Source: Phoronis australis
Taxonomy: Eukaryota > Animalia > Phoronida
Direction: 5' to 3'
DNA length: 64,000 bases
Assembly: GCA_002633005.1 (NCBI GenBank)
Contig: NMRA01000892.1
Span: 44,460-108,459 of the forward strand
The translations under genes were made by a program, and so were the position numbers. The notes under the pieces were generated by a model that had not been told where the DNA came from, ran no database searches, and saw only the letters and a program-made list of their open reading frames with translations. Position 1 is the stretch's first letter. Each line of letters opens with the position of its first letter. Shown one piece after another: positions 3,660 through 60,453 of the stretch.

Positions 3660-5718
3660 CAGGCCCGTAGCCAGGGGGGGGGGGGGGGTNGATCGAGCCC
3701 ACCCGCGGAAAAGGTCCAGCCCAGCCTCTCCGTTAAAGCTAGGATAGAGCTGAACGACAACAACAAATTTGTTGCAGGTACTCGTACTTTATACTAACTA
3801 AAATGATAACCAAGCTGTTAATAAGTTCTTTGTCATGGCCTGTGGTTTTACTGTTATGTAATTACATAGTAACTTGCATAGTGGTGATCACGTCCTACCA
3901 ATAATGGAACTTTCTAGGGTAAACTTTCATGAAACATAAACCCTAGGGTTACACGCATTTACTGACTAGATGTGAGTCCATCTTTTCCAGACATCGCAGG
4001 CACAAAGGTTATTTGTCATTTTCCTTAGCTGCAGATTATTTGTTGAACAAATTTGATGTGGTGCTTAGTCCTCTTACTGGCACTCATATTTTGTGAACCA
4101 AGTTGCTTACCTGATTTGTGCCCTTTGTGTTGTATATTTTACACGACCTTCTGTGGTATTATTATTTCAGAGAGCGTGTTGATGCCCTTCCGTATAGTTG
4201 TATTCTGAAGTGTTTTGTATAGATATTTTATTTTTCTTTCATAGATAAATAATAGATATGCAAGTTTCCGTCTACAGTTTTTCCTGTGGCACATAGCGTG
4301 ATGCACAGTCGTTAGTAACTGCATAGCAGCCCATCATATATTTAATAAAAAAACTTTTCTTATGCTGCGTGACACTCTGAATTTCGGATATTGGAACTGT
4401 GTCATTTTGGACATGTTCTGCACCTTCTACAGACTGCGAGTATTTACTTTTTGCTTCTGCTTATGTCTCCATTTAAAAGGGATTTTAATCAATTCTTGCT
4501 TTATACTTTGTCTTCATAGTGATTCGCAAAGTGATGCTCTGTCTCTTTTAACTATAACGCCCCCTTTTGCTCAAGCCGCCTGTTATGTTTGTAAAAGCGG
4601 TTTAATTTCAATACATTTTCAAACTAACAACCTGGCGTCCTTCTAATGTGATTGGCAATCTCATGTCACACCCTTTTTGTTTCACGCGGTGCAATTACAT
4701 GTACATCCAAGTTTGCCTGCCTGTTATTGGTTGAGCTACTCATACTGTACTTAATTTCGATATTAACCTTACCTACCAGTTAAATGTTGATATCTTACTT
4801 TATGGTCCAGAGGACGAAACATTCGAAAATTTGCCAAATGGTATCACTCAAGCAGTCTATGGGACTCCCATGAACCAGACACAATGCTACCGCCGTTGTT
4901 GTTTAGACTAACCTGGGTAGTATAATCTTTCTATTTAGAGAAAAACATGTCCAATTTCTGAGAGCAATTTTGCAGAGAGTTCCCCTAACAGCTAATGCTT
5001 CCTGGCCCCCCAGCCATTGTCGCAACGCCCACCCTTTCTGGTGCGCAAGTTAATTGATCCACCCTCAGATTTATAAATAGTCTCCGATCCACCACAATAC
5101 CAACAGTTGTGACTAACCTCCTGACCTGAGCACATAGCAACTTGAACGTCACTTAGCTTCTGCTGAGCTATCATAGCTCATACACGGTGCATTGCATTCG
5201 TAATAATAGAGGGCACTAAACTTGGGGAACGAAATTGTGCACTAAACAGGCTGAATTTCACCAGGGTTTGCTCTGATATGAGTGGGGGTCAGTTGTGTCC
5301 GGGGACGGCTTGGCCATTGGGTGGCTTAACCCTGGGAAGGCGCGCGGCCGGGAGTGCTGGGTGACCCTGTAACGTACGATGCTCGGATGGAAGCTACCCC
5401 AGGTCCTCCAGGTATATTTGTGTCTGCACTGCCATGTAGTTCAATTTCCCTTGTAGTTAAGATATAGCTGTGTCTGGTACGTGGGTGCGGTATGGCGTCA
5501 GTGGAGGGTCTTGTCATCTACAGCGACCACATTTCCGGCTCTATGGTTTCCCAGGGTGTGGCTGGGTTGCGAGCTTTGAGGGAGAGGTACTGTACTGCCC
5601 ATCGTGAGGTATCCAACCTGTCCCCCGGGTGATGTGCCCCAAGTCACACGTCTTGCCTGCATTCTGGAGGGGGGTTGAGATTCATGGAGGCAAATCCGAG
5701 AAAGGCGTCGGTCCATTT

Positions 5719-5870
5719 CCAGTGGCGGATCTACGGGGGGGGNCCCCCCCCCCTCGGGCCGGGACCCGAAAATTAAACAAAAAAAAACGTCTCCAGCAAA
5801 ACAAAAACGGCAACGCCAGCGTGTGTAAACCCCGAGTAAACCAACTTGGAAAAAATGAGGGGGGGTTCAC
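5719..5870 (+). repeat. CAGTGGCGGATCTA-terminus hAT-like element end; related copy inverted at ~37200-37346
   Basis: cgtctccagcaaaacaaaaacggcaacgccagcgtgtgtaaa matches the reverse complement of tttacacacgctggcagtgccgtttttgttttgctggagacg. Confidence 0.7.
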
Positions 5871-6599
5871 TCTTAAAATATATTTTTTTTCATTGTGAAT
5901 TGCTGTTATGAAAATCAACGCGTTTCGAGTCTTCGTGGCTCATCGGCAAAACCCCGGAGATCAATTGTGCGCTCGCTTCCGACGACACTTCTGAAGTAGC
6001 AAAGCATTTTAGATGGATGCACCGCTGAAAATGCAGCTCTATAGCTGATTTCTTTAGGTAACTAGTTTCTAAGATATGTTTTGATTTGATTAGGGGAAAT
6101 ACTGTGGTGCCGCAACCCTGATATTCAGGCGAATTGATGGGCAACGTTTTTACCTCATCTGTCATGCCGTGTCATCCTATTACATCCCACACGTTTGTAA
6201 CTCGAATTTGACTTGTGTATTGTAAAGTTGTCTTGCGCAATATCATACAGTGTACATGTACATGTAATACTTTTGAAAAAAAATCTCGTTTTCCGAAGAA
6301 TTGCTATTGTGGCAGGCGCCGTGGTCTGGTCGCGAGTCTGTTTGAAGATCATGGCACTCTAACAAGTTATGACTATACAAGGAATGACCAAAGGGGCACA
6401 CACATTAACAAAGTGACCGCATTCGCGAACAGTGTACAGTACCAGAAATTGCGGGGAGGCTGTATTTTCACAACAAAGTCTTGCGGGACTCGTGCGATGT
6501 TCAATGGGCCTTCTAAGGAGCCCTAGTGCCGACCTCAACACCTACCGTCTTTCTACGTGCAATAAGTACACGGAGGTTTTCTATACTGGGAAGTTCCCC

Positions 6600-10145: not shown

Positions 10146-11267
10146 AGAGTCAACTATCTGCAAAATTGTTTCCACGTTTACAAATTGTCACTGAATACAA
10201 CTGCACTTTGTGTTATAGCGTGGATCTTGTTAAAGTAGCATTATCACCTAATTCCTGATATACATTAGAACACGTACTTAAGATCATGCAAATACATCTC
10301 TGAAGTTCCAGTTCCGTCATTGAAAGCGATTTTCTTTGTTCATATTCAGGGAGGAAGCACTTTTCTGATGCGAGAATTTACATACTGGCATGTAATTACA
10401 TATACTAAAATCATGGATTAAATGGATTTGACTGATTCCTTCAGCAGAATGATTCCACGAACTTGATTTACTTAACTTGTATTTTGCGATTTCAGCTTTA
10501 CCTATAGCACTGCGCGGGATGTTGCAGTGCTCTTATCTGATTTAACTGTGGACACATTTTGGGCAAGTGCAGTTGAAATTCTCCTCAATTAGCAATTATT
10601 TTTGTAAAAATTTCTATACACAGATTTCGTGTTTTCTCCAGTGTCATATACCCCAATTTATAGGAATTTCGAAAAATAGGAGGTCGTGCTCTATGTCATT
10701 TTACCATAGATTATAGACAACGGATTCGGAACTCCGGCATTTTCTTACGTACTATCCAAGAGGCGCCGCCACTCCCCTGACCTTTCTGGTACAGTTTCCA
10801 GTTAGTGTATTTTGACGAAAAACATTTACATATACATTACTGTCCAGTACAACGAAAAAAAATTTAATTTTGGCATTGAAACGCTGTTCAAAGTCTTTCA
10901 ATAGTAGAAGTGTTGGTATTGTGAGTACTTTTGGCAATGCTACTGGTAATTAATTACAAAATTCAAGATTCGTTGCCGACTGATTATGTCGTCTGCTTGC
11001 TCAATAGCATAGCAGCATAGTTATCGGACAGTTTGTGATTTATGCTTCACATAGGCCTACTGAGAAAACTACGAAAGCATGTTTGTGCACAAATTCCAAG
11101 GAGTACCTGTGAATGCAAAAGATACTTATATAACGTTTTTGGTTTAGAAAAATATCAATTATGTTCGAATTGAAAAATGCACTTCTGCAACGATTTGACT
11201 ATTTTAACCTTTGCATGTTTATAATTCAACATTCTCAAGTGAGCAGTTCTTCTGGGAAGTGTTGAGT

Positions 11268-11283
11268 GGCCCTTAAAAGGGCC
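11268..11283 (-). promoter_or_regulatory. Histone 3'-UTR stem-loop (distal), copy 1
   Basis: Minus strand reads CCAAC-GGCCCT-TTTA-AGGGCC-ACTCA: 6-bp stem, 4-nt UUUN loop, canonical flanks. An AGAAGAACTG purine tract follows about 10 nt downstream. Confidence 0.85.
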
Positions 11284-11308
11284 GTTGGTTGTAGGTATAG
11301 CGTGAAAT

Positions 11309-11324
11309 GGTTCTTAAAAGAACC
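11309..11324 (-). promoter_or_regulatory. Histone 3'-UTR stem-loop (proximal), copy 1
   Basis: Minus strand CAAT-GGTTCT-TTTA-AGAACC-ATTTC, a perfect 6-bp stem 10 nt after the TGA stop at 11337-11335. Confidence 0.65.
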
Positions 11325-11334
11325 ATTGAGTAAT

Positions 11335-11428
11335 TCAACATGAATAACACAGTATACCATGCTCACTCAAGTACTGAAGGTCCTTTTCGTTCAAGTTTTC
11401 ATCTGGGAAGGCTGGATGAAAACAGAGG
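11335..11428 (-). pseudogene. Truncated 3' end of PHD-finger-like ORF (copy 1)
   Basis: Translates LCFHPAFPDENLNEKDLQYLSEHGILCYSC*, homologous to copy 2. Confidence 0.55.
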
Positions 11429-12732
11429 TTATGATTGTTGATCATTAAATGAATGAATGACGTGAATGAATGACATCCAGATAATGTATCTTAACATGGG
11501 CTTCACAAAACAGCTTTAAAATACTTTTCATTCAATAGCCACTTTCAAGACAAATTGGTGTAAATGACAGCAGTCGATGTTCTGTATTGTTTTGTGTTTA
11601 ACTGAAACATGACCAGAGGTCGGGTCTTTATATTGTCAAGCTCCTGCGAAATTGCAACGTTTAATTCACAATTGGGGTGCATGTACGCATCCAGGGGGCT
11701 CGGAGGGGGTCTCGAATGAGATCCCATATTAGACAAAGTGGACAAATAGCTCCGACAGCAGAGAAACAAACAAATCCGAAAATGTAGAACACGAGACAGA
11801 ATGACACCACTAAAATGGCAGGAACTGTCAAAAATCAGCGAATGCACAAATCACAGCTCTGAACGTACTCCGTGAATCTTAGAAAAAAATGCACATTCTG
11901 AAAATTTTGAGCCACCCATTTTTTAGGCTCGGTGCGCGCATGAGATGGATTGGGCAAGATTTCATGTCAAAATATGACAATGCTTCGGTCTCAATTGGAA
12001 TAACAGCTGATTCTACAAATGGATTGTAATACCACATAAAGGTAGAGATCCACTCGTAGCCATTACTAATTCTAGTAGGGCACGCCACAAACACACCGAA
12101 TTGTGTCATAATGAAAACTCTTAACATTGACTTAGCTTGCGGATGCTATTCTCATAAAGTTATTTTATTTGATTTCTTATCAAAAATAAATATTAAACGA
12201 ATAACTAATGCAGGAAGCGTGCAACTGTACTTTATTATAGAAATGTTTTGGAATAAAATAAAGTCAACGTTGCCGCACCCCAGCTCTGTCGACTGTGATT
12301 CCGGGGCCCTGTCTGCAATCTCAGGCTCATACTCATACTCGAGATTTCATACTCAAAATTGTGCTCACTGGTGTCGTACTCAAAAAGCGTATTTAATGTC
12401 GCATTTTGAGTAGACTCTAAACGTAATCAAATCTGAGAATCGTACACGAGTTGCTATGGAACTCTTCAGTTAAGATGTGAAATGCAAAACCACAAAAAAT
12501 CGTGCTGATTCAGCGCTCCCTATATTCGCATCGACTACCATAGCAACTGCGTTATCGTCAGCTCTCGTTACAATTGACCTATCGCCAGGATTATGACGGA
12601 CGGCTTAATTGACCAATCAGAACGCAGCATTCTTGGCACACTTTCGTCTGCGTTTCCAAGCCGCCATTTTACCCGACAAACCAAACGCAGTCAGTAAAAT
12701 TTACTTTAGTCTATAGCTCAAGAAACTGTTGA

Positions 12733-12940
12733 TATGACGTGTGTAGCACCAACAGCCGTTGTGCTGCTCCAGAATAATATCCCGTCATTTTTGGCATGTC
12801 CTAAGCCGAAAAATGATGTTGAAAAGCGTAAACTATGGATCAAACTGTACGGCCACACGAGCAGCTGAACTTAGCGATGTTGCTTGATAACTCGAAGGCT
12901 ATAATAAACACAAATATACATGTATTAGTTCCAAGATACG
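12733..12940 (+). pseudogene. Degenerate THAP-domain fragment (transposon-derived)
   Basis: ...CPKPKNDVEKRKLWIKLYGH../QLN.../NKHKY resembles the FPKP....KC..WIK.CGRPH.QLN...KH.YVCSKHF pattern of invertebrate transposon THAP domains; frameshifted. Confidence 0.5.
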
Positions 12941-13617
12941 CACTTTTCAGCTTGGTGGCTATGGTGCAGGGCTATCTCAGATTTTGACTCCCGAGTTGGC
13001 TACATCTGGCCGCCTTTGTCTCGGCACCTGCTGGATCTCAGCATTCTGGCGGTAGTCCTCGGAAATTAATGTTTTCAAGGACATTTTTGTTTTATGTTTT
13101 TGTATTTATTTCAACCTAATGGACATTATTTTGTTTCGTATCAGAGGTACATTTTTGTTATTCATAAACTGTAAGCTGGCGTTCAACTGAACTTCTCTCC
13201 CGGTCAAATTTCAGAGATTCGATTGGCACAGGGAAGGGCACTGGATTACTGCCGGAACTCAAAGCCTTGGTCGAGCTGTTGTCACTAAAAATAAACTGTT
13301 GAATTACTTTTTGACGTGTACCTCTAGTATACACTATGTCTGTAGAGTTAGAGAGAGAGCTCATTTTGGAGTTGTTCAGACATGATATTTAGATTTATGA
13401 AGCTTTAAAAAAGAATTTGAGTTATTTTTGTAAATAACCTATTTTTGCAACTACGACACCAGACTTGTAATCTTTTTTAACCATACCACGACATAGTGAT
13501 CATGCTACCTTCAAAAGTAAATGAAAGCTACCTTTATGGAATGAAACTACAAAAAATGCCAAGTTCACAAGAAGGTAGACCTAATTTAAATGTCTTAATG
13601 GTGCAAACGGACAATTC

Positions 13618-13949
13618 CATAGGCGGATTTAGGGGGGGGGGGCAGGGGCCCCAGCCCCCTCCCGCTTGGGTGCCGCAAGCATAACGAAACAGCAAGAGCG
13701 TGAGGAAATATTGAGTTCAGTAACTAGGACCGGTAGCGGAAGAGGGGGGCTCAGACCCCAGATCGCGGCGGAATCGTGTTCCTGTTTTTTTTTTAGTCCA
13801 CCGATAGATTTTCTGAACAGAAAATCCAACGGTCTACATCCCTGGCCCCTGCAAATTTCGGGCGGCCTGTGCACATACAATCGCACTTTGCCCAATTCCA
13901 CGAGGCAACATATGTTGGGCCCCCCTGTGGTATCCTAGATCCGCCACTG
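13618..13949. mobile_element. MITE, termini CATAGGCGGATTTAG / CTAGATCCGCCACTG, 5-bp TSD AATTC
   Basis: AATTC at 13613-13617 and 13950-13954 flanks imperfect TIRs. Confidence 0.8.
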
Positions 13950-16544
13950 AATTCCAGACATTAACTTTACTTAGACACAGCCCTAGACCTACCAGAGCTA
14001 ACTGTTTGCCCAGGACGAGATGAGTGTGTACCTGAGCTATGAACCTGAATTTGTTTATCAAAATATTTCGTTAAAAGATTATAAAAGCTATCGAGTCGAT
14101 CTACATGTAGTCAGAGACTATAGTGCATGTCTTGTCTGTAATCTATGACCTACTTTACTCCAGGAGTCCCCCGCAGTTGTAACCTACTTTTCATTTGGCG
14201 AAATTTAGCAGACGACAGAATAAAAATATCGGTGAATCTTCACTGACTTTATTCGAAAGATCATGAAATCTATGGAATCGTACAGATAATTCGACTTTAA
14301 GGTACATACCCAGCTTTACATGAACATATCAGTGGCATTGTCATTTGTCAGGTGAAGGTGGCCCCGACGCCGAAGGATTCTTCGGGTTTTCGCTGGCTCC
14401 TCGAGCACTTATTTTTTCATCGTCACCCTTACAAATTCCCATAACATGAACGTACGATTCACTGTTGAAAAGCATCGCCTCTTGTCTCTGTCGACGTGTT
14501 TTCAAATAGTGCAAAAAGACTCATCGATTCCACCAGGAACGTCGTTTAGAGACAGTGTATTTGCCTCTGACATCTCGTTCGAATGTCGGGTATCACATGA
14601 CTTTTCGCATAGGGGCGGAGCTTGCGATAGGTCAATTACAAGAGCATGACGTGGAATGCTGAGTGTTCTGTAACTGTTATTCATTTGTACAGTTTCAATA
14701 CAGTATTCTTCTACCATTTCTTGATACAGCAGATTTGCCACTTATTAAGCTTTACTTGTTGAGTTCCTTATCTCCCTCCGGAAAATGTCTCAGTAAATTT
14801 GAGATAGCTTATCAAAACGTCAGTCGGCCGGAGCGGAGCAGCCAAAATCTCATTGTCTGATTTAGTCAGGGGCATTCTCTCCTACACTTGACTCACTTAC
14901 TGCTAAAATAGGCATGGTCACACCAACGATTGACGGCATATTGAAATTATATTTTTCATTAATGCAGTGGTGGGCCGGTGACCTCAGTGCGAGAGTCGGG
15001 TACAATGTCACAGGCCTGCAACCAACATTTTAAGGAGGGTTCGAATTGCACATTTTCTTTGGCGGGAGGTCGAATGTCAAAAGTTTGTACCTTAATTGCC
15101 AGCGGTGGTGTTCTTTAGTAAACCGGTTGTCCACCGTGACGTCAGCCCGAAACTCCAGTCGACATTTTTGGGCCGCAGTTGTTTGGTTACTGGTCAACCA
15201 CTGTTCTCTCCTGCATAGCACCCATTGCCGTGTAGGTCTACGCTGATGTCAAAACTTACTGTATCTTTATTCACCGGGATGTATCAAGTTAGCTGACATT
15301 TGGCGTGTGATTGGGTTATAAACACTAAATGTAGATCAGGCACTCAGAGTTCATCAGTGAACGGGACGAGACGTCCACTCATATTCACAAATCGGCAAAC
15401 AAAAACGGGGATTGAGGAATTATCGATGACTCATCTATGATGTAAAATCTGACCGGAAAGCAAATTCTTTTTCAACTTCCCTCGTCTTTAGGAAACCGTA
15501 AAAACCATTGCACACGCACTTCAATCACGGCAATCCCTACCCCGCAGCTGATTTTGACCCTTGTAATGACTCGTCGACATGGGATTAGCATTCACCAGTT
15601 GGCAGGAATCGTTGTAAGAAGGACTTTAAAAATTGACGGCAATGAAGTGTGGTGAGTATGAACTGTGAGACAGTTTGAGTATGATTCGAGTCTGAGTACG
15701 GAGATTGGAGACTGGGGCCAGGTAAACTATAAACACATGTCTTCAATTGTACAGATTTTTAAAATTATAATTTTCATAAGATACTGAGAATGCGTAACAT
15801 ATTTTTGTAGTCTTAATAATTGAAAACGGCAGCTAGATTTAATAATCTCTTCCGTATAGAAACTCTGACGCTGTTGCTGGGCATACATACTATCCCAGAA
15901 TGCAATAGAGAGGAGCTGGTGTGGGGCATGCGCATTGAGATTTGCACATTCGTTAATGTGTATTGCTTCAAGATCCAGTACCTAGAATCCCATGTACAGT
16001 ATTCTGTACCCCGCAAGTCTCTGTTTATTACTTGGCGGAACTCTTCGAATTCCATGCCGGCTTTCTGAAATGGTAAAGCGCACCAATTTCCATGTCCCAC
16101 ACCTCGTCAAACGTTAAGTCCCTGTCCTCCCCCCGGAAAAATTTTAACGTTGACACTCAGTCCGGGCTCACAGACAGACCTCGAGACAGGGCTACTATGT
16201 CGAGTTCAGATATTTGCTCGGTTTACACGAACAAAGAAGTCGTGTATTTTATGGGTTTTAAGCGTTATCAAAAGGACCGAAAATGTTGTTCAAATTCCTG
16301 TCAAAAAATTCACAGCTCACACTTTGTCCGGCGCTAAATTGCACATAAAATATGAAAATGATCTTTATCCCATATAGGCCATAGTCCCAGCTCTCCTATC
16401 TTTCACCTCCGTGGCCAATTTCTGGGGGGCAATGGGAACTTTGCATTAAACCCATCTACAGATGTTTAAAAGTAAATTTCAAAAAAAATCCCAAGAATAC
16501 ACGTGCACGCTTAGTTAGAATTTTAATTTAAAAAATGGAAAAAT

Positions 16545-16765: not shown

Positions 16766-18091
16766 TCTTGATGAAGGTTTCTTGTTCAGGTGGGACCTCA
16801 GGCAAATCTGATAAAATTACAAATGACGCCGTGACCCATAAGCTTGGTCTGAATAAATATCACATTCCCTTCCGCCAACTTGTTTTGACTACGTATGGGA
16901 AAAACTTTCAAATTCATATTTTGTCAGTTTCATTAACAATTTAAAACATCCACATCCAATCGCTAAATAAATATCTTTTACTCTTTCATCGATCGATAAC
17001 ATTTATTCTCAGACTTACCGTTTTTGCGTTATTTACCTTTGAATTTCAAAAATTGCAAAGTTTGAAACTTTTCGAAATTTGTACGGGATTTTGTAAATCT
17101 ATAGTTTTAGATAACGTTTAGAACAGGCTTTCAGGAAATGTTTTTCATTTTTCGCTATGACGCTTACTTTTTGAATTTTTGAACACTTTCTGGTAACGCT
17201 GTTCCTTTGTTGACTGATTTTGTAGCACTGTTGTTCGTGTACCTTCTATTGAACAAGAATAGCCTAATAGGCAATTACGTAGCCCTGGATGCTGAAAATC
17301 TGTCGCGCTTTGCTCGAGTTTCTCTTACCGGGTGCCATTTTCAGGAAGTTACGTGAAATCATGCATGTTGACGAATAAAAAGTCCACGGGTCACAAATAT
17401 TACAAATTTTACCTGATACAGTGTACCTTCCCATGCTATTTTGCAAGTGTCACGTGCTTCACTAGCGTTTGCCTAAATCACGTGACCCGGTTGACATACT
17501 TCGTGGTTATCGCGCGCCGTGAAAAAGTTAACGGCAACCAAAAAAGTGGAACTAGTTGGAATTCTTCATCAAAGCATAGATTATAGACAACAGACTCGCA
17601 GCTCCGGCATTTTCTTACGTTCTAGCCTGACCTTTCTGGTACAGTTTCCGGTTAGTGTATTTTGACGAGAAATATTTGCGTCTACATTACTGACCATTAC
17701 AACGAAAAAAAATCTTAATTTTGGCATTGAAACGCTGTTCAAAGTATTTCAATAGTATAAGTGTTGATATCATGAGTACTTTTTCCAATGCTATTGGTAA
17801 TTAATTACAAAATTCAAACTTCGGTGCCGACTGATTATGTCGTCTGCTTGCCCAATAGCATAGCTGCATAGTTATGGGACAGTTTGTGATTTATGGTTCG
17901 CATAGGCTTACTGAGAAAACTACGAAAGTATGTTTGTGCACAATTTCCAAGGAGTACCAGTTTTTGGTTTAGAAAAATGTCATTTTTTTCGAATTAAAGA
18001 ATGCGCCTCTGCAACGATTTGACTATTTCAACCTTTGCATGTTTATAATTCAACATTCTCAAGTGAGCAGTTCTTCTGAGAATTGTTGAGT

Positions 18092-18107
18092 GGCCCTTAA
18101 AAGGGCC
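18092..18107 (-). promoter_or_regulatory. Histone 3'-UTR stem-loop (distal), copy 2
   Basis: Identical CCAAC-GGCCCTTTTAAGGGCC-ACTCA and downstream AGAAGAACTG. The proximal stem-loop at 18133-18148 is partly broken (CAAC-GGTTCTTTTAAGACAC). Confidence 0.85.
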
Positions 18108-18158
18108 GTTGGTTGTAGGTATAGCGTGAAATGTGTCTTAAAAGAACCGTTGAATAAT

Positions 18159-18350
18159 TCAACATAAATCACACAGTATACCATGCTCACTCAAGTGCTG
18201 AAAGTCCTCTTCATTCAAGTTTTCATCTGGGAAGGTTGGATGAAAACAGAGGAGATGACAATATCGATGACAGTTTTAACACCTTATATCAATGTTACCG
18301 TTCTCCAACGTTATCACGAACCCTGCCTCTTTCAGTTCTTGTGCCTGGAT
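18159..18350 (-). pseudogene. PHD-finger-like protein pseudogene (C-terminal part); decayed coding-like sequence may extend to ~18570
   Basis: One frame reads IQAQELKEAGFVITLENGNIDIRC*NCHRYCHLLCFHPTFPDENLNEEDFQHLSEHGILCDLC*, i.e. C-x2-C-x4-H-x2-C...C-x2-C with one premature TAA. The first Cys pair is probably frameshifted near 18380-18395. Confidence 0.65.
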
Positions 18351-18744
18351 TCAGAAGTAACCCTGAACCATAGGGGAAAAGACATACAACGAAAACGCAA
18401 TCAAATTTTGAAAATCCTCGCTTTAGTACGATTGCCGGTGTTGCTGTCGCCAGACTAATATTCCTCCCCAACATCAATGTCGAAAATCGACGTTACAAGT
18501 GATGGAAACTTGTGTCCTTTGTTTCTAACTTTTAACCAATTTTAAGAAAGGGGTGTACTGATTTTGTCTAACGTTGATAGAGCATAACTTTTGGTTTTTA
18601 CAGTGCATTAATTGTGTTGAATGCATTCATATTAGGTGGCTTCATTCAGTTGAAGAGAAAATAAATTAAATGTAACACAATAAAGTTTTGAAAATAAATA
18701 GAACAGCAACAGGACTCCCTAAAAATCGAGCTGTTTTCGAAAAC

Positions 18745-18792
18745 TTTGCGCCATTGGTGATCTGATTGGTTCATGCATTTACGGCGGGAAAA
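18745..18792 (-). promoter_or_regulatory. Candidate G1/S promoter cluster: E2F site TTTTCCCGCC, two CCAAT boxes, E2F-like GGCGCAAA
   Basis: Plus strand tttgcgcc-attgg-tgatctg-attgg-...-ggcgggaaaa, upstream of the minus-strand PHD ORF. Confidence 0.4.
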
Positions 18793-21700
18793 TAATAGAC
18801 CAAGTATCGTGCACGTGTGCACTGTTGCAACACTTTGTATTTCATTCTTATTTGGGCCAATCTGTTGATACAGTAAATTTCCTCATTTATGCCCGTCCTG
18901 ATTTGACGGCAACTTGAGCTTGTTGGGTTCTATCATATATTGGGTTGGCATTGGGACCTACATGATGCTTACTCGAATGGGCTTCATTTTACCAAGTATT
19001 TCAAATTGAGGTGAAGTAAAATAAGCAAAGTGGGTGACTATCATCACCAGAATTTCATCATTAGTATCTTTTGCCGGGTGCTTAAATTTTCTGAGACCAG
19101 GGATTGTAAGATTTGTAAGGTAGAAGTGTTTCGCTGGATTTCCAGGTCTGTGGCGTTAATTAAAAACCATACCTTTGTTTAAATCAGGAGCTGCACGACA
19201 CACATTTATTAGACGTACGCAGGCATTGCACTGATCGATGATCACTTATCCTTTATGCACGGGACCCTTTTGTTACGTTAGGAGTGGAATTGGCTCCTTA
19301 TGTACCCTACAGGTGGCATAGGACTTTACAAAACTGGTTGAAGAATTTTGTTTTCGTCATAAACTTTCGTTTGAATGGCTTAAGTTTGGAAATGTTAGGA
19401 CTTAAGGCGGAAACTTAAAAACCATTTGTCCGCTTACAAAAATTTAACACTGAAGAATAAAAACAACCTTCACACCCCTCTGGTGTTCCTGTTCCATGTT
19501 TTCAAAGAAGTTGGTTGCGTTTTCATAGACTACAGTCGAGAGATTTTGTGCGGCATATATTGTGTAAGATGCTGTTGAATTGCGAGATAGAGTTTGACTG
19601 GTCCAGGTGGTTACATGTATTTCTGAAGTATTAATGTAATCTTTATTTATGTTAAAGGTTTTACCAGCGTTCTATTTATTTGTACACAAATGTGAATTTG
19701 TTGAAATCGCTGATCCAAATCCTGGCCAAATTTGTGCATTTTGTTGAGACCAGCCGTCTGATCAGGGCCACCGGAGAGTAATTTGGTTAATTCGGTCACT
19801 AGACTATGACTGAGTCACTACCATTGGAAGAAATTTAGCGGACAATTTTCGTCAAAAAGTTTACCAGATACTTTTCATCAAAACGGAGAAAAAAATGGAT
19901 TTGTGAGGACAGGATTAAGTAGTAGAGCCTCTTAAAAATATTCATCTTCGAAGTGCCTTGAACAAATGTATAAAGTCTTATTGCTGAAACAACTGCCATT
20001 CACGTTGACACAAGAACTAAGCTTCCCACAGCCGAATATGGTGTCTTCGGATGGTATGGAAGCTAATTCCTTTGCATTTCGCGTGTGTGACCGGTTGTTC
20101 GGCCACACAGTAGCCGACCATGATTAGCAGACGACGTACTTGCCGGAAATTGCACTAGAAAATTTAGCCAGGTGTCGCCAGTGAATAATGACGTAAGATC
20201 ACAGATTTCGTCCATTGAAAGTATACGGAGTTGGCGGTCCATGTACTATAGTGTATGATCAAAGTCAACTTAATTCTCACAACTAAGCTTCATCGAAGAT
20301 ATGTGTAGAAGAACAAAGTACCAATGATAAACTTAAGCGCTTTTTTAAATGATACTAAGTGTGGATTGTATTTTTGACGTGAAAACTCAAAATCGGTGGC
20401 CGGATTTGGCCTACCGCCCGTTTAAAATACATGTAACGAAATGCGTATAGAAAGCGAATGGAAGTATTGCAGTCCCTAAATGGCCAACCGAGGGCTACGT
20501 GTTGCCTAATAGCCTATTTCTCATTGACTTCTGACATCTTCGTCCGTCGTGTGAATGTGATCATCGTGTTCACCACTACCACCACCACCACCACCCCGAC
20601 CGCCATCATCCCTATTAAGGCCTTTTCAGTTAATTTTGCCCAAATGTCCTCCTCGGAGCACTTTCATTCTATTTGTTGTGATAGTGTGGGTTGTGGTCTG
20701 CAACCACTTCAGATAGAGAGTGAAGCTGATTCATATGTGACATTGGAAACACATGTATAACCAGGATAAATAGGTAGGAAATTTTAGTGCCAAGACAGCA
20801 CCAAAATACCCCTCCAACACATTAAAGCTCATTAACATCAACTGAGTGTGCAATCACTATTTGGTAATTCATTTTTTGTTTTGTCAGTGCCTGTTCCATA
20901 AGATTATATCACCTACAGCACACATCACAAATTTTTGGCCGACCGGTCGGAAATTGGTCGACGACCGGCCGTCGACCAGTCGTCTAGCCGACCAGCAACG
21001 GTCGGCTAGGAGGTGGCTCTTGATCATCACTTCATCACGCTGTATATTGCGCTTTACCACAGATAATTATTGTTTATTTCTGTATAATTTCTTAATATGT
21101 TTGTACAGCAATAGAACCCAAGTTTATTTTGGGAACAACATAAACACTGGTTTGAACATAGCGCCGATATTAAGATCATGGGCGTATGAAAACGGAAGAA
21201 TGTGATCGGTTTATAGTGTCATCCATCATCAATCATCATTCTGAATTTGTTGCCACTTTCGCAGTAAAATATCGTTTCGAAGCTAGAGCCTTCCCATCTA
21301 GCCAGCTAGCTGTATGAAGACTGTTTTCAAAATACAGCAAGGTGCCTCTGTTTATTGAGCTCGAACAGACCTCGAAATTTCACACAGCCCGGATAGTTAC
21401 GCTCGTTACCTTGTCGTGAAGCTTGTATTAGCATGAGCTCAAGACCGGCGGGTGTGAATGCAAAATCTGGAAGTCAATTGACATTCAACATGCCCGTTAC
21501 GGCCGTTTAAGCGAACAACATCAGACGTCATCTTCTTGCGTAATTCTCTGCCTTTTGTAACGAAAAAACGTATGTCGTCGTTTTGAAAAGGGTTCATTCG
21601 TGACACGCGCCACTTCCAAATTGTTTTCGACATCTCCCATTCGATGATGACATCATCTCACCAAAATTTGTTCTAAAATTTGGTTTACTGATATCAAAAT

Positions 21701-23867
21701 TCCTAAAACATATAATGAAGTGAAACCAATTCTGCCTTGATCATTTGTTGTGACGTTTACGCAACCTCGAGGGAGAACGTTTGATTGAAGAATCTGGGAA
21801 AAAGAAACTGGCTAATAGGTGACGCAAAAGATCACACCATAACTTTAGCAGCAGAATAATTGTAGAAAACCAATTTTTGCAACGCTGGTAAATAAGTTAG
21901 ATTACTCGGTCAGTTTTTACCCACAACGGCGCAAATTTGTATATTTAATTTTCTAAACAGCTTATCACCAAGGCTAAAGCCTTCCGAGCCCTTTGGCGTA
22001 AGAACACAATTCTTGCCGTTTCACGTATACTCCAAGGGGTAAAACTTTAAAAATAATATTTTCGGGGTAACTTTATACATGTACGCTTAATCCTAAAAAA
22101 AGTAGTCTGTGTTTTCATGTAGAGCGTAAAATGATTAATCCAGTGATTCATAAAGAACACTCTCGCAAACGAAAACGCACAAAATTCTCAGTTCTATTAC
22201 ACAGGTTAAAAAACAACTTCTATAAGTTTATTGCATCGATTCTAGTGATCACCAGGGAAATTCAAAACTCTTAAGGGAGCGCAATTTCAAACCTTTGGCA
22301 TGAATCAGTGTTGCAAAAATGGATTCAGACCGACGTTTATTCATCAGCAATGTAGACACAAGAGTTACAGATACTGACTGCGTTTGTTAACGTCTTGTGG
22401 CAATGATAAAAATAATTGTTTCTACCATGATTGATTACAAGTTTTTCTCTGATGAGGTATGATGCAATATGCATGCCTAATATGCAGATCGGCAGTTGCA
22501 AAAATATCTACTGGGTTTGATGAATCCGTTTGTTATGAACCAAGCCTGCAAAAGTATGATTACTAATTGTACATTCGAAGCACACCTCATTAAAAAAAAA
22601 CATACACATGCTTGATGATCCTAGGAGTACAGTACCTCTATTTACAGGCGTGAATGAAGATACATAGTTGTTAAGCCATAGAGGATAATCAATAATCAGC
22701 CTTACATAATATCACACCGAGACATCTACACCAGGCATATACAAAGGATACAGTATTTCAAAAGAAGCCACAACTACTCATTTTTCATAGTCATAACTAC
22801 TCATTTTTCATAGTATTATTAAATCACGAACACCTAGATCTATTTAAGAAGTTACATAGTACGATGCTACACCACCTGCTCTCCCATATTTATGGAAGTC
22901 CTAAGTGGAAACATTTAACTACATATATTATTTTCTATGCAAGATTAAAACCAAGCAAAACGTGTTTACTTAACTCTCCAGGACCAAAAATAAATATCTC
23001 AAAATCAACACTTTTACACAAGCAAGAATTAAAACAATCCAATACATTGGGATTGTTTTCACACAGAAGACCAAAATACAAATCAAGACCAAAATTCCTC
23101 ACGTCAAGACTGAAACTTTATCACATCAGCACCTATAATTTATCACGTGAGGACAAATAATTCTTCACTTCAGGATCAAAATAAAATACGACCAACTGAA
23201 AATTTAATAAGTCAGGTTCAAAAATTTACCATGTCAGTAACTTATCATGCCAGGACACCACGTCACCATCCCCAAGCATTGATCCTTTAAAGTGATAATG
23301 TCCGTACTACACGTATAAACAAGGGCTAAGTATTCAACCTCTCCCCGACGACAGACATATTATCTAGGAAATGCGGTTGAATTTCTTTCGTCTAATGCAC
23401 GTTTTGCAATAGATGCCAATGTAAAGGTACACACTGGATTGTCATCATTGCATAATGGGTGATCACGTAGTCTCCAGGCATGAAAACAATTCTCTCCTGG
23501 TGTGATGAGTTTTCTGACGCAATAAATCCTGGTTGCCAATTGTTTTCGATTCTACAGGGATTTCAATTCCTGAATAGAAAATGTGTGTTCTGGATTTTTC
23601 GGCTTCAGTCTTCCATTCAGCGAACTAGTGCACAGCACAGTGTTTTTAATATCCCGTGGCGGATCCACTGCAACGAATCACTTCTGGTACAACCTTCAGT
23701 ATGTAGTCACCTATTTCACAAAAGCACCATCTTCCCGCGCCATCTTTAAATACTGATCGAAAACGAGACACACTGATAAAACCTCGTGAGAGATCATCAG
23801 CTGGCCATGGTGTACTGTGCAGTGCCTGAACGTACCAATTCCAGTAATAACTCGTCGCTACCATTCC

Positions 23868-26027
23868 CAGGGATATACTTAGCCACTCGCCCAGTCGCCA
23901 ATGCAGAGTAAAAATGGTGCTGGGCGAGTAGAAGTTGACTTGCCGGTTGCCCGGTGGCGAGCGAATTTCAGAGCGCAAAACCACTGTATATCGTTTCCCA
24001 GATGAATATGAATAATTTTCCTCATCCTTGTGCTGTTTTTATCATGAATTTAAGGTTCAGTTTGGTCATCGTGTCGATGCTCCGGCAGTAAACAACATCG
24101 GCGCAGTGCGACACTACCGATTCAGTACATGTCACCCGTTACGCGATTCGTCAAAAAACACAGTGTGTGGTCGTGCACAAAGAATTTGTGGACTAGTCCG
24201 AAACGAAGAAAAGGGGAGAAAGGTGGAAGACCGGTCCATGTGCTCATAGCAAATGAAATACTATATTTCTTGAAACTGATTTCTTATTGTAATGTGCATG
24301 TACAATGTCATTTTAGACAAAATTATTTTTATAACATGCGTCCTAATAAGCGCCATGCCCCTATCAGCGTCCCAACTCGTTTTCAGACATCGCTAAAACA
24401 AGCGCCCAGTCCATGAATGTGTATATATTTGTGCGAAAAAATGCCTTACCTCACAGTTCTAAAATTCTACAGTAATGTATTCATTTTAACAATAATACGC
24501 GACAGTCTTGAAAAATCATTGTGCGCGGAATTTCTAGTAGACCACGAGCCTCGCCGCTATGTCGGTATTTAGCCGTGGCTGTACACTTCAAACCGTTTCG
24601 CAGTGCTTCAAAAAGAACGCAAAAGATTTGCTGATCTTGCGAGGAAAGTGTATATGTTCTGGCCCTTCAGAACAGACGCAGCGTACTGGTAACGGGATTG
24701 GCCGTATTGTATCTTTCCCGTACAGATCTTCTCCCACAACAGGGCCCGGTCTCTAATCTTTGTACTCGAAACGAACTCGAAACTATTTTTGGCAATTTCT
24801 CTGCTCCTTTTGTGCGAACTTAAGATAATCGGTTATCAGAATGTGCTCGAATACAATATACACTGTAGTTTATGCATAGGAGTTCCTAGTTCAAGTTTGC
24901 CCTTGAAGACCCTTATATTCGTGCTACAAACTCGAGTAAAAACTCGAACTTTCGAGTTCAAACTCAAACTTATTGCTTTAATATTGGGTTTACAAACTGT
25001 GAACTAAGGGCAATAAATTATCTACGTAAGTTATTGTGTACTCGAGTATAGAATAATAGACGCTTATCTTGATTTCGCCCAAAAGTAGAGTAGAAAATGC
25101 CAAACCTAATTTCGAGTTCCATTTCGAGTAAAAAGATTGGAGACCGGGCTCAGATTGCTTTGTACACGTCAAATTACAAAAACCGCGAATCGAAACTTGG
25201 TCAAGAAACGCGCTAGGGCCTACAAATAATATGTGGGCCTGCTCAATGAGATAAATATAACTACATACACACCTGTACAGCTCATTGGGCCTGTTACTCT
25301 GGCAAATGAACACTGATAACACTCACGCGCTCGCTCACACGGTGCACACCTGTTGACTCACTTCAATACAAACGTCACGTAACAACATATGTGTTCGTCC
25401 AGATTTTTCACGTTGCGGGGTGCGATCTAGCGCAGATTTTTACTTAATCTGCTTTTAATCCCGACTCCGAGTCCACCGGAACTTAGAATCTTAGGAAAGG
25501 CTATTTGGAAAACTTAAGGAGGATTTCAGGTAATTTGAGTCGAAACTATTTTTACTCAAGAATTCAAGTTGTCCTCTCGACGATTGCGAAGCAGCGACGC
25601 ATCACTGAGTCGGCAAGTTTTCGCACATTTTTTTAAAAAGATCGTAATTTAACAACAGAGTGGTGATAGCAATGCACCACAGTTTTGTAGACAGTCTGTC
25701 ATAGGTTACACATACGTCACAGCGCGTAAATTTGATGAATCCTAGCTTCCGAGATTTCACCCGTTTCGGAGACCGGGTTTTAACCGCCTTAGGCTACAAA
25801 AAGGCGTCACCCTGGGCGCTTATAAGGGCGAATACGGTAGCCTTAATAGATGGTGACATCAGTGCACGAAACGATGGTTTTTATATAAACTAGCAGCAAG
25901 TTTGTGGTGACTGGCTCCAACGACCGGGTGACTGAACTTCGGGCTGGGCGAGTAGATTTTCTGGCTCCGGCACTCGCCCAGCTGGCGAGCAGGGTTTTTC
26001 AAGACTAAAAGCCTGGGTATATCCCTG
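23868..26027. mobile_element. hAT-like non-autonomous element, TIR CAGGGATATAC
   Basis: cagggatatact at 23868 and gggtatatccctg ending at 26027; ctcgcccag/ctgggcgag subterminal motifs at both ends. Confidence 0.7.
24743..25150. mobile_element. Harbinger-type MITE with CAG 3-bp TSD
   Basis: TIR ggcccggtctctaatctttgtactcgaaa / tttcgagtaaaaagattggagaccgggct, flanked by CAG on both sides. Confidence 0.75.
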
Positions 26028-29984: not shown

Positions 29985-30970
29985 TATTCACCTATTTCAC
30001 GAAAGCGCCATTTTCCCGCGCCATCTTTAAATACTGATCGAAAACGAGGCACACTGATAAAACCTCGTGAGTGATCATCAGCTGGCCATGGTGTACTGTG
30101 CAGTGCCTGAACGTACCAATTCCAGTAATATCTCGTCGGTATCCTTCCCAGGGATATACTTAGCCATTCGCCCAGTCACCAATGCTAGTAAAAATGGTGC
30201 TGGGCGAGTAGAAATTGACTTGCCGGTCGCCCGGTGGCGAGCGAATTTCAGAGCGCAAAAGCACAATATGTCGTTTCCCAGATGATTATGAATAATTTTC
30301 CTCCTCCTTGTGCTGTTTTTATCATGAATTTTAGGTTCAGTTTGGTCATCGTGTCGATGCTCCGGCAGTAAACAACATCGGCGCAGTGCGACCCTACCGA
30401 TTCAGTACATTTCACCCGTTACGCGATTCGTCAAAAAAACACAGTGTGTGGTCGTGCACAAAGAATTTGTGGACTAGTCCGAAACGAAGAAAAGGGGAGA
30501 AAGGTGGAAGACCGGTCCATGTGCTCATAGCAAATAAAATACCATACTTCTTGGAACTGATTTCTTATTGTAAAGTGCAATGTCATTTTAGCCAAAATTA
30601 TTTTGATAACATTCGTCCTAATAAGCGCCCATGCCCCTATAAGCGTCCCCACTCGTTTTCAGACTTCGCTAAAATAAGCGCCCAGTCCATGAATGTGTAT
30701 ATATCAGTGCGAAAAATGTCTTACCTGACAGTTCTAAAATTCTACAGTAAATGTATTCAATTTATCAATAATATCCGACAGTTCTGAAAAATCATTGTGC
30801 GCGTAATTTCTAGTAGACCACGAGCCTCGCCGCTATGTCGGTATTTAGCCGTGGCTGTACACTTCAAACCATTCCGCAGTGCTTCAAAAAGAACGCAAAA
30901 GATTTGCTGATCTTGCGGGGAGGAAAGTGTCACACTACATGGTCTGGCCCTGATCAGAACAGACGCAGCG
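29985..30970 (+). repeat. ~1-kb diverged duplicate of 23706-24683 (composite transposon segment), cut at a single-N join
   Basis: Co-linear direct repeat with scattered substitutions and indels; ends exactly at N 30971. Confidence 0.85.
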
Positions 30971-33555: not shown

Positions 33556-34413
33556 CTGGGGATGGCAAAAAGAAGTAAAGTTTGAACTATAATTAAGTTA
33601 ATTACCCACTGCAAATTCAGTTGACATTGCGAGTGAATATTGAAATAGCTAACATGGTTAAGACATGTATAGGTAATATTGACCGAAAACAAATTTACAA
33701 AGAATAATTAACCGGACTTTTTGATTTTCACTCGCCACAGTTAAATCGGCTTTTTCCCAGCTTCGGTAAATCGGCTTTATTAGAATTTAGGATCACGAGT
33801 TCTCGTAAACAGCTTGGTGGATTTCGCTGAAACTTTCCAACTTAATATTTATTCATCAATCTCAAAAACATCTAGTTTTTGCGTAATGTAACAAAAACGA
33901 ATATGACTTCTATTTTTAACAAAAATACATAACGTTTTTCCAGTTGATTTGTCAAAGAAACCAAAAGAAAAGACCAATCGAAAATTCCCAACGGAGTTTT
34001 TGAGGCAGCAGGTGAAGTTTTTTGGTGAATACTATATCTAACTCAAATGCAAAATACGAGTAAACATATTCCGTTTACAGCACCTTAATAAATTTACATC
34101 AAAATTAAATATAATATTTGCCCAAACTCGAGCGTAAGTTTTATCATTTTTAATGAAAAAGACATCGGTTAAGATAAAAATTAGGAGAGTTTTTGATTTT
34201 AAAATGCACTCTAACAGTTAAGCTTCCAATCAACGGTTTGTGTCAGATGCAGGTGACATGGGGCTGTCTTCACATGTCCAACATCATTCTCATTTGCATC
34301 GTCTGATTCAATAAAAAGTTACAAAAGAAATGGTAACTCAAAACGTCGTTACTAGCGAAATGGTTTATCTGTGTTTAAGTCGAAATAAGCGTTAGAATTA
34401 CTGTTGAACTCAC

Positions 34414-34692
34414 TTAAACATTGTATTTCCAAATGTTGCATTGGCTTGTTTTGCCGTAGATCATCGATTCCAATGCCATCACTGTCCCACTTCTTGCTTT
34501 TCATCCAGCATCTCTTCGTGTCCCGGTTATAATCGGCAGACGAACATGGCTTGCTCTGGTAACACAACAGGGCGCAGTGTGCAGGACAGTTCGCATTAGA
34601 TACGACATGTTCATCTACATTGTGGCCGCGTAGCTCGTGTTCAAAAAGTTTGTAGATTTGAAATTTATAGGGATGCTCACAGACCTGTGTTC
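34414..34692 (-). CDS. Secreted PAN/apple-domain protein, exon 2 (279 bp, phase 1-1)
   Basis: ttttttcag acceptor and gtgagt donor; TQVCEHPYKFQIYKLFEHELRGHNVDEHVVSNANCPAHCALLCYQSKPCSSADYNRDTKRCWMKSKKWDSDG...QHLEIQCL has the PAN C-x3-C-x5-C...Y...C pattern. Confidence 0.85.
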
Positions 34693-59365: not shown

Positions 59366-60270
59366 AGAATTAAACTCATTGCTTATTAATTTAGAAAGAT
59401 TGTCTTTGCACTTCGTTGATGTTTTTAGTTTCCAGTAGTATTGGGCAGTGAATGTTTGTTCTTCAAAACTGTCTCGTTGGCTTGCCATTCCCGTGCATAC
59501 TACACAGACGGAGCGCGTCATGACTGACGTACCCACGTTAAAAATCATGTGTTATCATGCAGTAGTCCCGCGTAGAATATGAGTGATCCATGGGAACTGA
59601 ATTTGAACTCCAAGCGTTGAAGTGTGTACATTTTGGTACGCAATCTGTATCATTTTCCACAGATACCAGAAATTGGACTACCGGCCGTGTTTCAACAAGG
59701 AATTTTGAAACAACCCAGAGGCAAAAACTTGGGACCTCGGGACTTCACCTTTTCAAAAATTCCTTCAGAGAATGACCATAATAAAACGATTTTTCCCGAA
59801 ACTGGATTATGTTAAAACGGATATTGACCTTAGAAGCAGCACAGACGGATATGTAGGAGCTAGGATGCCTGTCTCAAGTGTACCATAGCTGAGCTTAGCG
59901 ACTAGCCTGGTTTTCCGAATTTCGTACTTTCACAATGTTAGATCTCAGCTCCAATTTCTTGAGACAGTTCCCAGCTGCCAGTCTGCGCACTGGCCCTAGG
60001 CCGAGCCTAACTCTCCATGAAAATTTTGTTGGGTCACGGTTTACTCAAATCCTGATGGCTGCACCCTCGGGATTGCCCCCCAAACCTTATACAAATATGT
60101 CGGAATCCGGAGGACGGGGAGGGGGGGGGCAGGTGGTGGCTATAGGAAGGGATGGTAGTTCGGCAATATTTTTTGCTTTCCTTTGGGCCTGTGGTTACAC
60201 GGGTAGCTGTGGTGGTGGTTATGAATGTATCGTGGATTATAACTATGAAGACTACTCCTTTTAGTATATA

Positions 60271-60453
60271 AAATGATCACTTACTTAGAGACGTGGTTGG
60301 TTGTTAGCAGAACCACCTGGTTCGCCAGGTCTTTGTCGATGAATAAGGGATTTCCCGCCTTTAGCTCGGGAAATCCCTTATTCATCGACAAAGACCTGGC
60401 GAACCAGGTGGGTCTGCTAACAACCAACCACTTCTCTAAGTAAGTGATCATTT
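60271..60453. repeat. Near-perfect 183-bp palindrome (87-bp arms, 9-nt loop), palindromic MITE in TA-rich site
   Basis: Arms 60271-60357 and 60367-60453 with two mismatches seen. Confidence 0.92.

What the first reader, a model, noticed from the sequence alone, without database searches (positions are those of the whole stretch)
10705..11430. Second copy keeps both stem-loops intact: tandem double histone stem-loop
Seen: copy 1 has two perfect 6-bp/4-nt stem-loops with different, mutually compensated stems (GGTTCT/AGAACC and GGCCCT/AGGGCC), 25 nt apart. The distal loop, its flanks and the AGAAGAACTG tract are identical in both copies, while neighbouring sequence differs. The last codons stay open in both (EKDLQY..CYSC* vs EEDFQH..CDLC*). 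Histone genes normally carry one stem-loop. Inference: the compensated pair points to selected RNA structure rather than a chance palindrome, possibly double SLBP loading or SLBP titration by many repeat copies.
Basis: partly seen in the sequence, partly recalled or inferred. Interest (0 to 1): 0.7.

Follow-up and report, generated by a model that had tools for sequence, protein, structure and literature searches.

The report
Transposon genes with histone mRNA ends
The double hairpin is the tail of a small gene inside a jumping DNA element of an animal genome, and unrelated jumping elements carry the same doubled signal right behind their own genes, so these elements likely borrow the RNA-ending machinery that animals are thought to reserve for histone messages, which would tie their activity to DNA copying.

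Summary
The two stem-loops are real, but no histone gene is attached. Positions 10705-11434 are the 3' third of a 2.7-kb DNA transposon. The whole element lies at 17575-20257, with short inverted ends, a 7-bp target duplication and many insertion sites.

Both loops sit 10 and 51 nt behind the stop codon of a ~110-aa PHD-finger gene. A purine-rich downstream element follows the distal loop only. The second window copy has a broken proximal stem, but public reads show that break is private.

A generic double-stem-loop scan of metagenome contigs returned 118 loci. Of these, 91 lie directly behind DD37D Tc1/mariner transposase codons, 2 behind a Kolobok KolX-type gene, and none of 131 upstream ORFs is a histone.

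Stems covary between families. Within families, copies decay neutrally, so any selection acted on active founders, not on copies. That weakens the SLBP-titration idea.

Likely mechanism (untested): U7/SLBP processing gives transposon mRNAs histone-like, replication-coupled expression. The RNA-seq laid here cannot show the 3' end. Closest print precedent: one histone hairpin in non-coding nematode Tm1-HH elements.

The parts
10705..11434 (-). Copy A: 3' third of the transposon (the finding); broken off at 11434, no partner end found
   Evidence: 85.6% identical to 17575-18258 over 731 columns; no matching target duplication within 12 kb; no similarity of 11434-14160 to the rest of element B
10705..10721 (+). 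Element terminus CATAGATTATAGACAAC of copy A
   Evidence: identical to the terminus at 17575
11244..11253 (-). Purine-rich downstream element (HDE-like, AGAAGAACTG), starting 15 nt after the distal loop
   Evidence: sequence; RRRGR at +16; inside the Rfam Histone3 match 11242-11288
11268..11283 (-). Distal stem-loop SL2, flanks CCAAC / ACTCA; predicted cleavage about 5 nt behind it (near 11263, inferred)
   Evidence: Rfam RF00032 36.0 bits; fold
11309..11324 (-). Proximal stem-loop SL1, intact, 10 nt behind the stop codon; weaker flanks, no downstream element
11335..11433 (-). Last 32 codons and stop (11337-11335) of the PHD-finger ORF in copy A
   Evidence: tblastn with relatives P0046, P0048, P0059, P0060, E 3e-11 to 4e-5
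17568..17574 (+). Left target-site duplication ATCAAAG
17575..20257 (-). Copy B: whole 2683-bp element with imperfect inverted ends (10 of the first 12 bases match), inserted into another repeat
   Evidence: ends and duplication; diverse loose flanks at exactly 17575 and 20257 and empty-site reads
18068..18077 (-). HDE-like tract of copy B
   Evidence: identical to copy A
18092..18107 (-). SL2 of copy B, intact
   Evidence: Rfam 34.2 bits
18133..18148 (-). SL1 of copy B, broken by two changes private to this copy
   Evidence: 98 of 100 and 94 of 100 RNA reads, and over 99.8% of contig depth, carry the stem-forming letters at 18134 and 18135
18159..18478 (-). Decayed stand-alone PHD-finger ORF, about 106 codons, with an in-frame stop and frameshifts in this copy
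   Evidence: relatives of 71-169 aa at E 4e-21 to 1e-4; PHD_NSD E 3.3e-6 for P0048; tblastn; the start position is inferred from P0047 and loose ends
18600..19650 (-). Middle region; one frame has fewer stops (mostly 2-3 per 99 codons); family not identified
   Evidence: no hit
19900..20121 (-). THAP-like remnant (split over two frames) near the 5' end
   Evidence: Pfam THAP E 0.042, below cut-off; N-terminal Cys motif by eye
20258..20264 (+). Right target-site duplication ATCAAAG

Best explanation
The double stem-loop is the 3' end of a small PHD-finger gene inside a multi-copy DNA transposon, and the active founder element likely used it to enter the host's histone mRNA pathway. Shown: element ends, target duplication, dispersed copies, gene, two stem-loops just behind the stop codon, a downstream element behind the distal loop only, and the same layout behind Tc1/mariner transposases and a Kolobok KolX-type gene in other hosts. 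Inferred steps: (1) U7 snRNP pairs with the downstream element and the RNA is cut about 5 nt behind the distal loop, without a poly(A) tail. (2) The mature RNA keeps both loops; the distal one does the processing, the proximal one is an accessory second SLBP site. (3) SLBP then makes export, translation and decay follow S phase and dividing or early embryonic cells. (4) A cut-and-paste element gains copies when it moves during or after replication (recalled knowledge), so selection acts on founders while copies decay.
For: Element anatomy. Family majority keeps both loops. 91 of 118 have a Tc1/mariner transposase C-terminus in sense within 400 nt upstream of SL1 (median 24 nt; 2 of 118 antisense). 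18 of the other 27 link to those by flanking DNA. 20 of 21 full-length relatives are DD37D. L065 and L116 have a P2RX7_C ORF 15 nt upstream, the KolX protein of Kolobok Kol0 (PMC9587614, passages). 0 of 131 upstream ORFs from 105 of 118 loci match a histone family. Features outside the pattern are histone-like: AAC before and ACC after both loops, and RRRGR 11-24 nt after SL2 in 90 of 118 loci against 108 of 1630 control windows. Across 15 rows, 97.2% of stem cells pair, SL2 100%, 11 cells change on both sides, and 0 of 500 shuffles reach these two values. Spacers vary from 10 to 38 nt. U-G wobble at pair 3 in 58 SL1 and 25 SL2 of 118 argues for a strand-specific RNA structure.
Against: No RNA evidence of the predicted end: three RNA runs show reads on both strands, mostly running on into unlike sequence, with no pile-up of ends. 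Library type is unspecified, so tail-less RNA may have been lost. No transposase catalytic domain was found in this element, so its superfamily and autonomy are open. Most of the 118 loci descend from one DD37D lineage, so there are about three identified independent cases plus six or seven unassigned loci, not 118. The pattern demanded two near-intact loops, which biases the pairing counts. Two of the five measures (pairs with changes on both sides, further pair types) were reached by 210 and 450 of 500 shuffles. 6 of 18 family representatives lack the RRRGR tract. One DD37D subfamily of 21 has a degenerate SL1. S-phase timing itself was not tested.
Confidence: 0.6

Rival explanations
1. The founders did use SLBP/U7, but for a compact poly(A)-free 3' end, for storage in oocytes or for escape from poly(A)-dependent surveillance, rather than for S-phase timing.
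For: All sequence evidence for processing fits this equally. No AATAAA lies between SL2 and the element end in either copy; there is one ATTAAA in copy A. An oocyte-specific SLBP is described in zebrafish (PMC6239174, search listing only).
Against: In histone mRNAs the same signal also drives decay at the end of S phase (PMC5706932, passages), so timing would come with it. A poly(A) signal is shorter and easier to gain than two loops plus a downstream element (inference).
Confidence: 0.2
2. Passive capture: the element picked up the end of a histone gene (as Pack-MULEs pick up host pieces), duplicated it by slippage and carried it without function.
For: This is the reading offered for Tm1-HH (PMC3169594, passages). 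Copies decay neutrally. Spacers in DD37D elements look like old unit duplications.
Against: No histone coding remnant upstream in the window or in 131 ORFs. The loops sit in sense and mostly within about 50 nt of the stop of three unrelated element genes. The two window stems differ at four positions that all keep pairing. Spacers diverged while loops and flanks did not.
Confidence: 0.1
3. Decoy: transcripts of the many copies titrate SLBP and so alter host histone supply.
For: The family is abundant in DNA contigs, and its sequence appears in RNA.
Against: In 5 DD37D subfamilies the four stem bases left free by the pattern differ from the subfamily majority at 26 of 256 (10.2%), like flanks and spacer (7.3-9.7%). 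In the window SL1 is broken in 1 of 2 copies. RNA is two-stranded and shows no defined ends.
Confidence: 0.05
4. DNA-level motif: subterminal palindromes bound by transposase or extruded as cruciforms, resembling the histone loop by chance.
For: The window's two stems are perfect inverted repeats in DNA. In L013 part of the loop region recurs inverted at the other end.
Against: Wobble pairs work on one strand only. Flanks and the downstream tract are asymmetric and histone-like. The loops track the stop codon, not the terminus: about 560 nt to the end here, roughly 200-420 nt in DD37D elements. Unrelated transposases would not share one site.
Confidence: 0.05

Closest known systems
Metazoan replication-dependent histone mRNA 3' end (Rfam RF00032 Histone3 plus histone downstream element; SLBP, U7 snRNP, CPSF73)
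   Same: 6-bp stem, 4-nt U-rich loop, A/C-rich flanks, purine-rich tract about 15 nt downstream, short distance to the stop codon, no AATAAA (PMC5435866 and PMC5054213, passages).
   Different: The ORF is a PHD finger inside a transposon, not a histone. There are two loops, not one. Processing is not shown.
Tm1-HH elements of root-knot nematodes (Gross and Williamson 2011, PMC3169594; abstract and passages read)
   Same: A histone hairpin inside a DNA transposon with inverted ends and target duplications.
   Different: Tm1-HH are Mutator/Foldback-type with 9-bp duplications, carry one hairpin, have no coding potential, and were read as possible host capture. Here the hairpin is doubled, follows the stop codon of an element gene, has a downstream element, and recurs in other superfamilies.
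P-superfamily DNA transposons (P, Galileo, THAP9); defining features recalled, not from a call
   Same: 7-bp target duplication, ends beginning CAT, THAP-like N-terminal remnant.
   Different: No P-type catalytic domain detected; very short imperfect inverted ends; an extra stand-alone PHD gene.
DD37D Tc1/mariner elements (the name maT is recalled) and Kolobok Kol0 with KolX (PMC9587614, passages)
   Same: Not relatives of the window element, but they carry the same doubled signal behind their genes.
   Different: Different transposases, ends (TA-CAC...) and target sites. The Kolobok paper has 0 occurrences of 'histone', 'stem' or 'hairpin' in its main text.

Membership tests
Replication-dependent histone mRNA 3' end | Consensus 6-bp stem / 4-nt loop | tested here: met
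   SL2 above Rfam gathering score in both copies; SL1 perfect stem but 20.8 bits, below it
Replication-dependent histone mRNA 3' end | A/C-rich 5-nt flanks for SLBP | tested here: met
   SL2 CCAAC / ACTCA; SL1 weaker, TCAAT / ATTTC
Replication-dependent histone mRNA 3' end | Purine-rich downstream element about 15 nt behind the loop | tested here: met
   AGAAGAACTG at +15 after SL2, none after SL1
Replication-dependent histone mRNA 3' end | Complementarity to the host's own U7 snRNA | not testable with these tools
   no genome held; host U7 unknown; only the conserved UCUUU box could be compared (PMC5054213)
Replication-dependent histone mRNA 3' end | Mature RNA ends about 5 nt after the loop, without poly(A) | tested here: inconclusive
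   no pile-up of ends in three paired-end RNA runs of unspecified library type
Replication-dependent histone gene | Histone coding sequence upstream | tested here: not met
   the ORF is a PHD finger
Replication-dependent histone gene | Intronless gene | tested here: inconclusive
   no splice-type joints among those listed for RNA reads (not all joints were shown); relatives are short single ORFs
TIR cut-and-paste DNA transposon | Terminal inverted repeats | tested here: met
   10 of the first 12 bases match between the ends; short and imperfect
TIR cut-and-paste DNA transposon | Target-site duplication and empty site | tested here: met
   ATCAAAG on both sides, chance about 1e-4 at a fixed site; reads of the host repeat without the element
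TIR cut-and-paste DNA transposon | Dispersed copies with different flanks | tested here: met
   loose flanks at 20257 in 81 contigs and 161 + 154 reads, agreement 0.41-0.44; at 17575 in 199, 163 and 302 reads, agreement 0.54-0.75
TIR cut-and-paste DNA transposon | DDE transposase gene | tested here: inconclusive
   none detected in three decayed frames; the element may be non-autonomous
P superfamily | 7-8 bp duplication and CA-starting ends (recalled features) | tested here: met
P superfamily | N-terminal THAP domain | tested here: inconclusive
   Pfam THAP E 0.042, 15.1 bits, cut-off 23.9
P superfamily | P-type catalytic domain | tested here: not met
   no Pfam or PDB-sequence match in any - strand frame; decay may hide it, so the element is not filed as P
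PHD finger | C4HC3 zinc ligands and PHD fold | tested here: met
   ligand pattern in relatives; PHD_NSD above cut-off for P0048; model pLDDT 72 whose ten best structure matches are all PHD fingers, none at E <= 0.001

The most novel reading that the evidence does not exclude
Several unrelated animal DNA-transposon superfamilies have independently adopted a doubled histone stem-loop plus downstream element, so that transposase and accessory mRNAs are made by the SLBP/U7 pathway and are confined to S phase. This would be a general, overlooked way for cut-and-paste elements to time their jumps to replication, and would end the rule that histone mRNAs are this pathway's only coding clients.
Probability: 0.5. 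Interest if true: 0.88.

Novelty: new variant of a known kind. Interest (0 to 1): 0.74.

Why it matters
Replication-dependent histone mRNAs are described as the only mRNAs processed by SLBP and U7 (PMC5054213, passage). Transposon genes that end in the same signal would be the first coding exceptions with a clear selective reason. They would also give a simple RNA-level answer to how cut-and-paste elements couple activity to replication, on which their increase in copy number depends (recalled). The claim is cheap to test with reporters and existing processing extracts. The signal is also a search handle for young elements and their accessory genes, and a source of false histone-gene calls from Rfam hits. 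The doubled form offers a natural experiment on what a second SLBP site does.

Tried and rejected
No whole genome is held, so copies were not counted against true histone genes. The run search listed no RNA holder; RNA runs came in by species label.

The inverted end-like motif at 14131-14147 was considered as copy A's other end and rejected: no target duplication, no similarity to element B. The idea that the PHD codons are the C-terminus of a long transposase was dropped: a search among longer proteins found nothing, and 7 of 9 hits are 71-169 aa (the two long hits are weaker, E 2.5e-7 and 2.2e-5, and match in many stretches).

The family of the middle region was not found. DNA around the PHD relatives could not be fetched (one search found none in viral contigs), so whether they also end in stem-loops is open. 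Atlas look-ups of the L008 and L014 ORFs gave leads only. One search used a wrong register for the second helix and is superseded.

Literature: ten searches found one paper with a histone hairpin in a transposon (PMC3169594) and none on doubled loops or loops behind transposase genes. Repbase Reports and most subscription journals are not in the library, and three look-ups by recalled id (two papers) were not held. No supplements were read. PMC2874221 (passages) did not give the S-phase argument, which stays recalled. PMC13525598 (passages) and the soniCLIP preprint (passages) added nothing on transposons. Term look-ups in 10.64898/2026.10.14.759114 returned no passages.

Full report
OBSERVATION. 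The window is animal-like genomic DNA of about 39% G+C with many dispersed repeats. No whole genome is held. On the - strand, 10705-11434 holds two perfect hairpins 25 nt apart: SL1 at 11309-11324 and SL2 at 11268-11283. Both fold (z -4.47). Rfam Histone3 passes its gathering score at SL2 in this copy and in a second copy at 18068-18112; SL1 scores 20.8 bits. The second copy is 85.6% identical over 731 columns and has SL1 broken by two changes.

WHAT THE UNIT IS. The second copy extends to a whole element, 17575-20257. Its ends match as inverted repeats at 10 of the first 12 bases, and ATCAAAG stands on both sides. Laying public data on it showed loose, mutually unlike flanks at exactly 17575 (199, 163 and 302 reads, agreement 0.54-0.75) and 20257 (81 contigs, 161 and 154 reads, agreement 0.41-0.44), and reads of the interrupted host repeat without the element. 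Summed contig depth is in the thousands to tens of thousands along the whole element, where single listed contigs of run X1 have 20-143. The tool warns that this is no copy number, so I say only that the family is abundant. At the two broken SL1 positions, 98 of 100 and 94 of 100 RNA reads and over 99.8% of contig depth carry the stem-forming letters, as does the one contig of a second organism label. The family norm is therefore two intact loops. The finding's copy is a 3' fragment: no partner end or duplication was found.

THE GENE. The codons before SL1 end a PHD finger (Pfam E 0.055). A search of 1.84 billion representatives gave 9 hits, 7 of them proteins of 71-169 aa. Full-length relatives start with an acidic N-terminus and show the C4HC3 pattern. 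One scores PHD_NSD above cut-off, and its model's ten best structure matches are PHD fingers, all weak. They map to 18434-18162 and 11433-11338. The ORF is thus most likely a stand-alone gene of about 110 codons. Its stop lies 10 nt before SL1 and 51 nt before SL2. A THAP-like remnant lies near the 5' end (E 0.042). The middle kilobase has one frame with fewer stops but no identified family. THAP, CAT ends and a 7-bp duplication recall the P superfamily (from memory), but without a catalytic domain I do not file it there.

THE SAME LAYOUT ELSEWHERE. A generic pattern for two histone-type loops 10-40 nt apart found 0 loci in viral contigs. It found 5 in 596 Gb of prokaryotic genomes, all tandem repeats lacking the ACC 3' flank. 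The 118 come from 36 assembly prefixes (counted), probably few host species. One upstream ORF retrieved 41 relatives, many with Pfam DDE_3; 20 of 21 full-length ones are DD37D. With those 21 as queries, 91 of 118 loci have the transposase C-terminus in sense within 400 nt of SL1 (median 24 nt), and 2 have an antisense hit nearby. 18 of the remaining 27 link to them through flanking DNA with the loops masked. Many are 500-1300-bp deletion derivatives with long inverted repeats, and 12 show TA-CAC-like motifs at both ends (one or two of these are loose). L065 and L116 carry a P2RX7_C ORF 15 nt before SL1, the KolX protein of Kolobok (PMC9587614, passages). L072 has a weak DDE_3 hit; L008, L014, L023, L036, L039 and L043 are unassigned. 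None of 131 ORFs from 105 of the 118 loci matched a histone family; 13 loci had no ORF of 45 codons to test.

SELECTION. Features not in the pattern are histone-like. Both loops are preceded by AAC and followed by ACC in most loci (118 loci plus the two window copies). RRRGR, the complement of U7's conserved UCUUU box (PMC5054213) allowing wobble, lies 11-24 nt after SL2 in 90 of 118 loci, against 108 of 1630 control windows. It is present in 12 of 18 family representatives, and after SL1 in 1 of 18. On 15 rows chosen to represent families, 97.2% of stem cells pair and 11 change on both sides, with 0 of 500 shuffles as high. The two measures that count pairs or types were not exceptional (210 and 450 of 500), and the pattern itself favours pairing. 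Within five DD37D subfamilies the four unconstrained stem bases differ from the majority at 10.2%, flanks and spacer at 7.3-9.7%. Copies are therefore not under selection; founders apparently were. One subfamily of 21 has a degenerate SL1, so the proximal loop is the dispensable one.

EXPRESSION. No RNA holder was listed. Three RNA runs with the same species label gave 747-1309 reads on 17450-18950, on both strands, with 77-96% running on into unlike sequence and no pile-up of ends (likewise). This fits read-through of scattered copies and says nothing about the founder's 3' end.

MECHANISM. From established histone biology (PMC5435866, PMC5706932, passages): SLBP binds the loop, U7 pairs about 15 nt downstream, CPSF73 cuts, and the RNA is translated in S phase and destroyed at its end. 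I infer that the founder's PHD mRNA, and the transposase or KolX mRNAs of the other elements, were processed at SL2 and kept SL1 as a second SLBP site. A cut-and-paste element multiplies when it moves from replicated to unreplicated DNA or when the gap is repaired from the sister chromatid (recalled), which gives the selective reason. Confidence 0.6. Rivals: the same pathway used for other ends 0.2, passive capture 0.1, decoy 0.05, DNA motif 0.05.

NOVELTY. Ten literature searches found one precedent: single hairpins in non-coding Tm1-HH elements, read as possible capture (PMC3169594, abstract and passages). Repbase notes and subscription journals were not searchable. Earlier AI notes of this scan report histone-type ends in a Polinton gene, a Penelope element, a gene-less repeat and small orphan genes. 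They are unchecked leads, not support, but they show that the theme has been met before in this scan. No note with Tc1/mariner, and none on this sequence or its PHD relative, came up. I rate it a new variant of a known kind, interest 0.74.

Noticed in passing
window 17511-17574 and 20258-20311: Element B sits inside another abundant short repeat, whose two halves join up in reads.
   Followed up: partly
window 20103-20257 with 17575-17660: Depth peaks at both ends, and loose ends before 20105 match the other end's sequence, which suggests a much more abundant miniature derivative made of the two ends.
   Followed up: no
window 14112-14147: Inverted end-like motif resembling both ends of the element; perhaps the end of a related family.
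   Followed up: partly
L065:206-933 and 4887-6097: KolX-type (P2RX7_C) ORF with a double stem-loop 15 nt behind it, and transposase-like fragments (by eye, no Pfam hit) on the opposite strand.
   Followed up: partly
L008:674-1737, L014:139-1013, L036, L043, L023: Open frames of unknown family (310 aa, 266 aa with zinc-finger-like features, others) ending shortly before a double stem-loop, mostly without the RRRGR tract.
   Followed up: partly
L081, L097, L039: Three or four stem-loops in tandem; L039 is followed by CCAAT repeats and AATAAA and looks LTR-like.
   Followed up: no
L119, L121, L122: A Methanosarcinales genome bin has 49-bp tandem repeats containing a histone-like hairpin without histone flanks.
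   Followed up: no
window 23704-24683 and 29985-30970: Another two-copy repeat of about 1 kb, 93% identical, not examined.
   Followed up: no
window 60259-60465 and 24744-25149: Self-inverted (MITE-like) elements.
   Followed up: no
window 34352-34744: Open frame on the - strand with a PAN/apple-like Cys pattern by eye, possibly a host exon.
   Followed up: no
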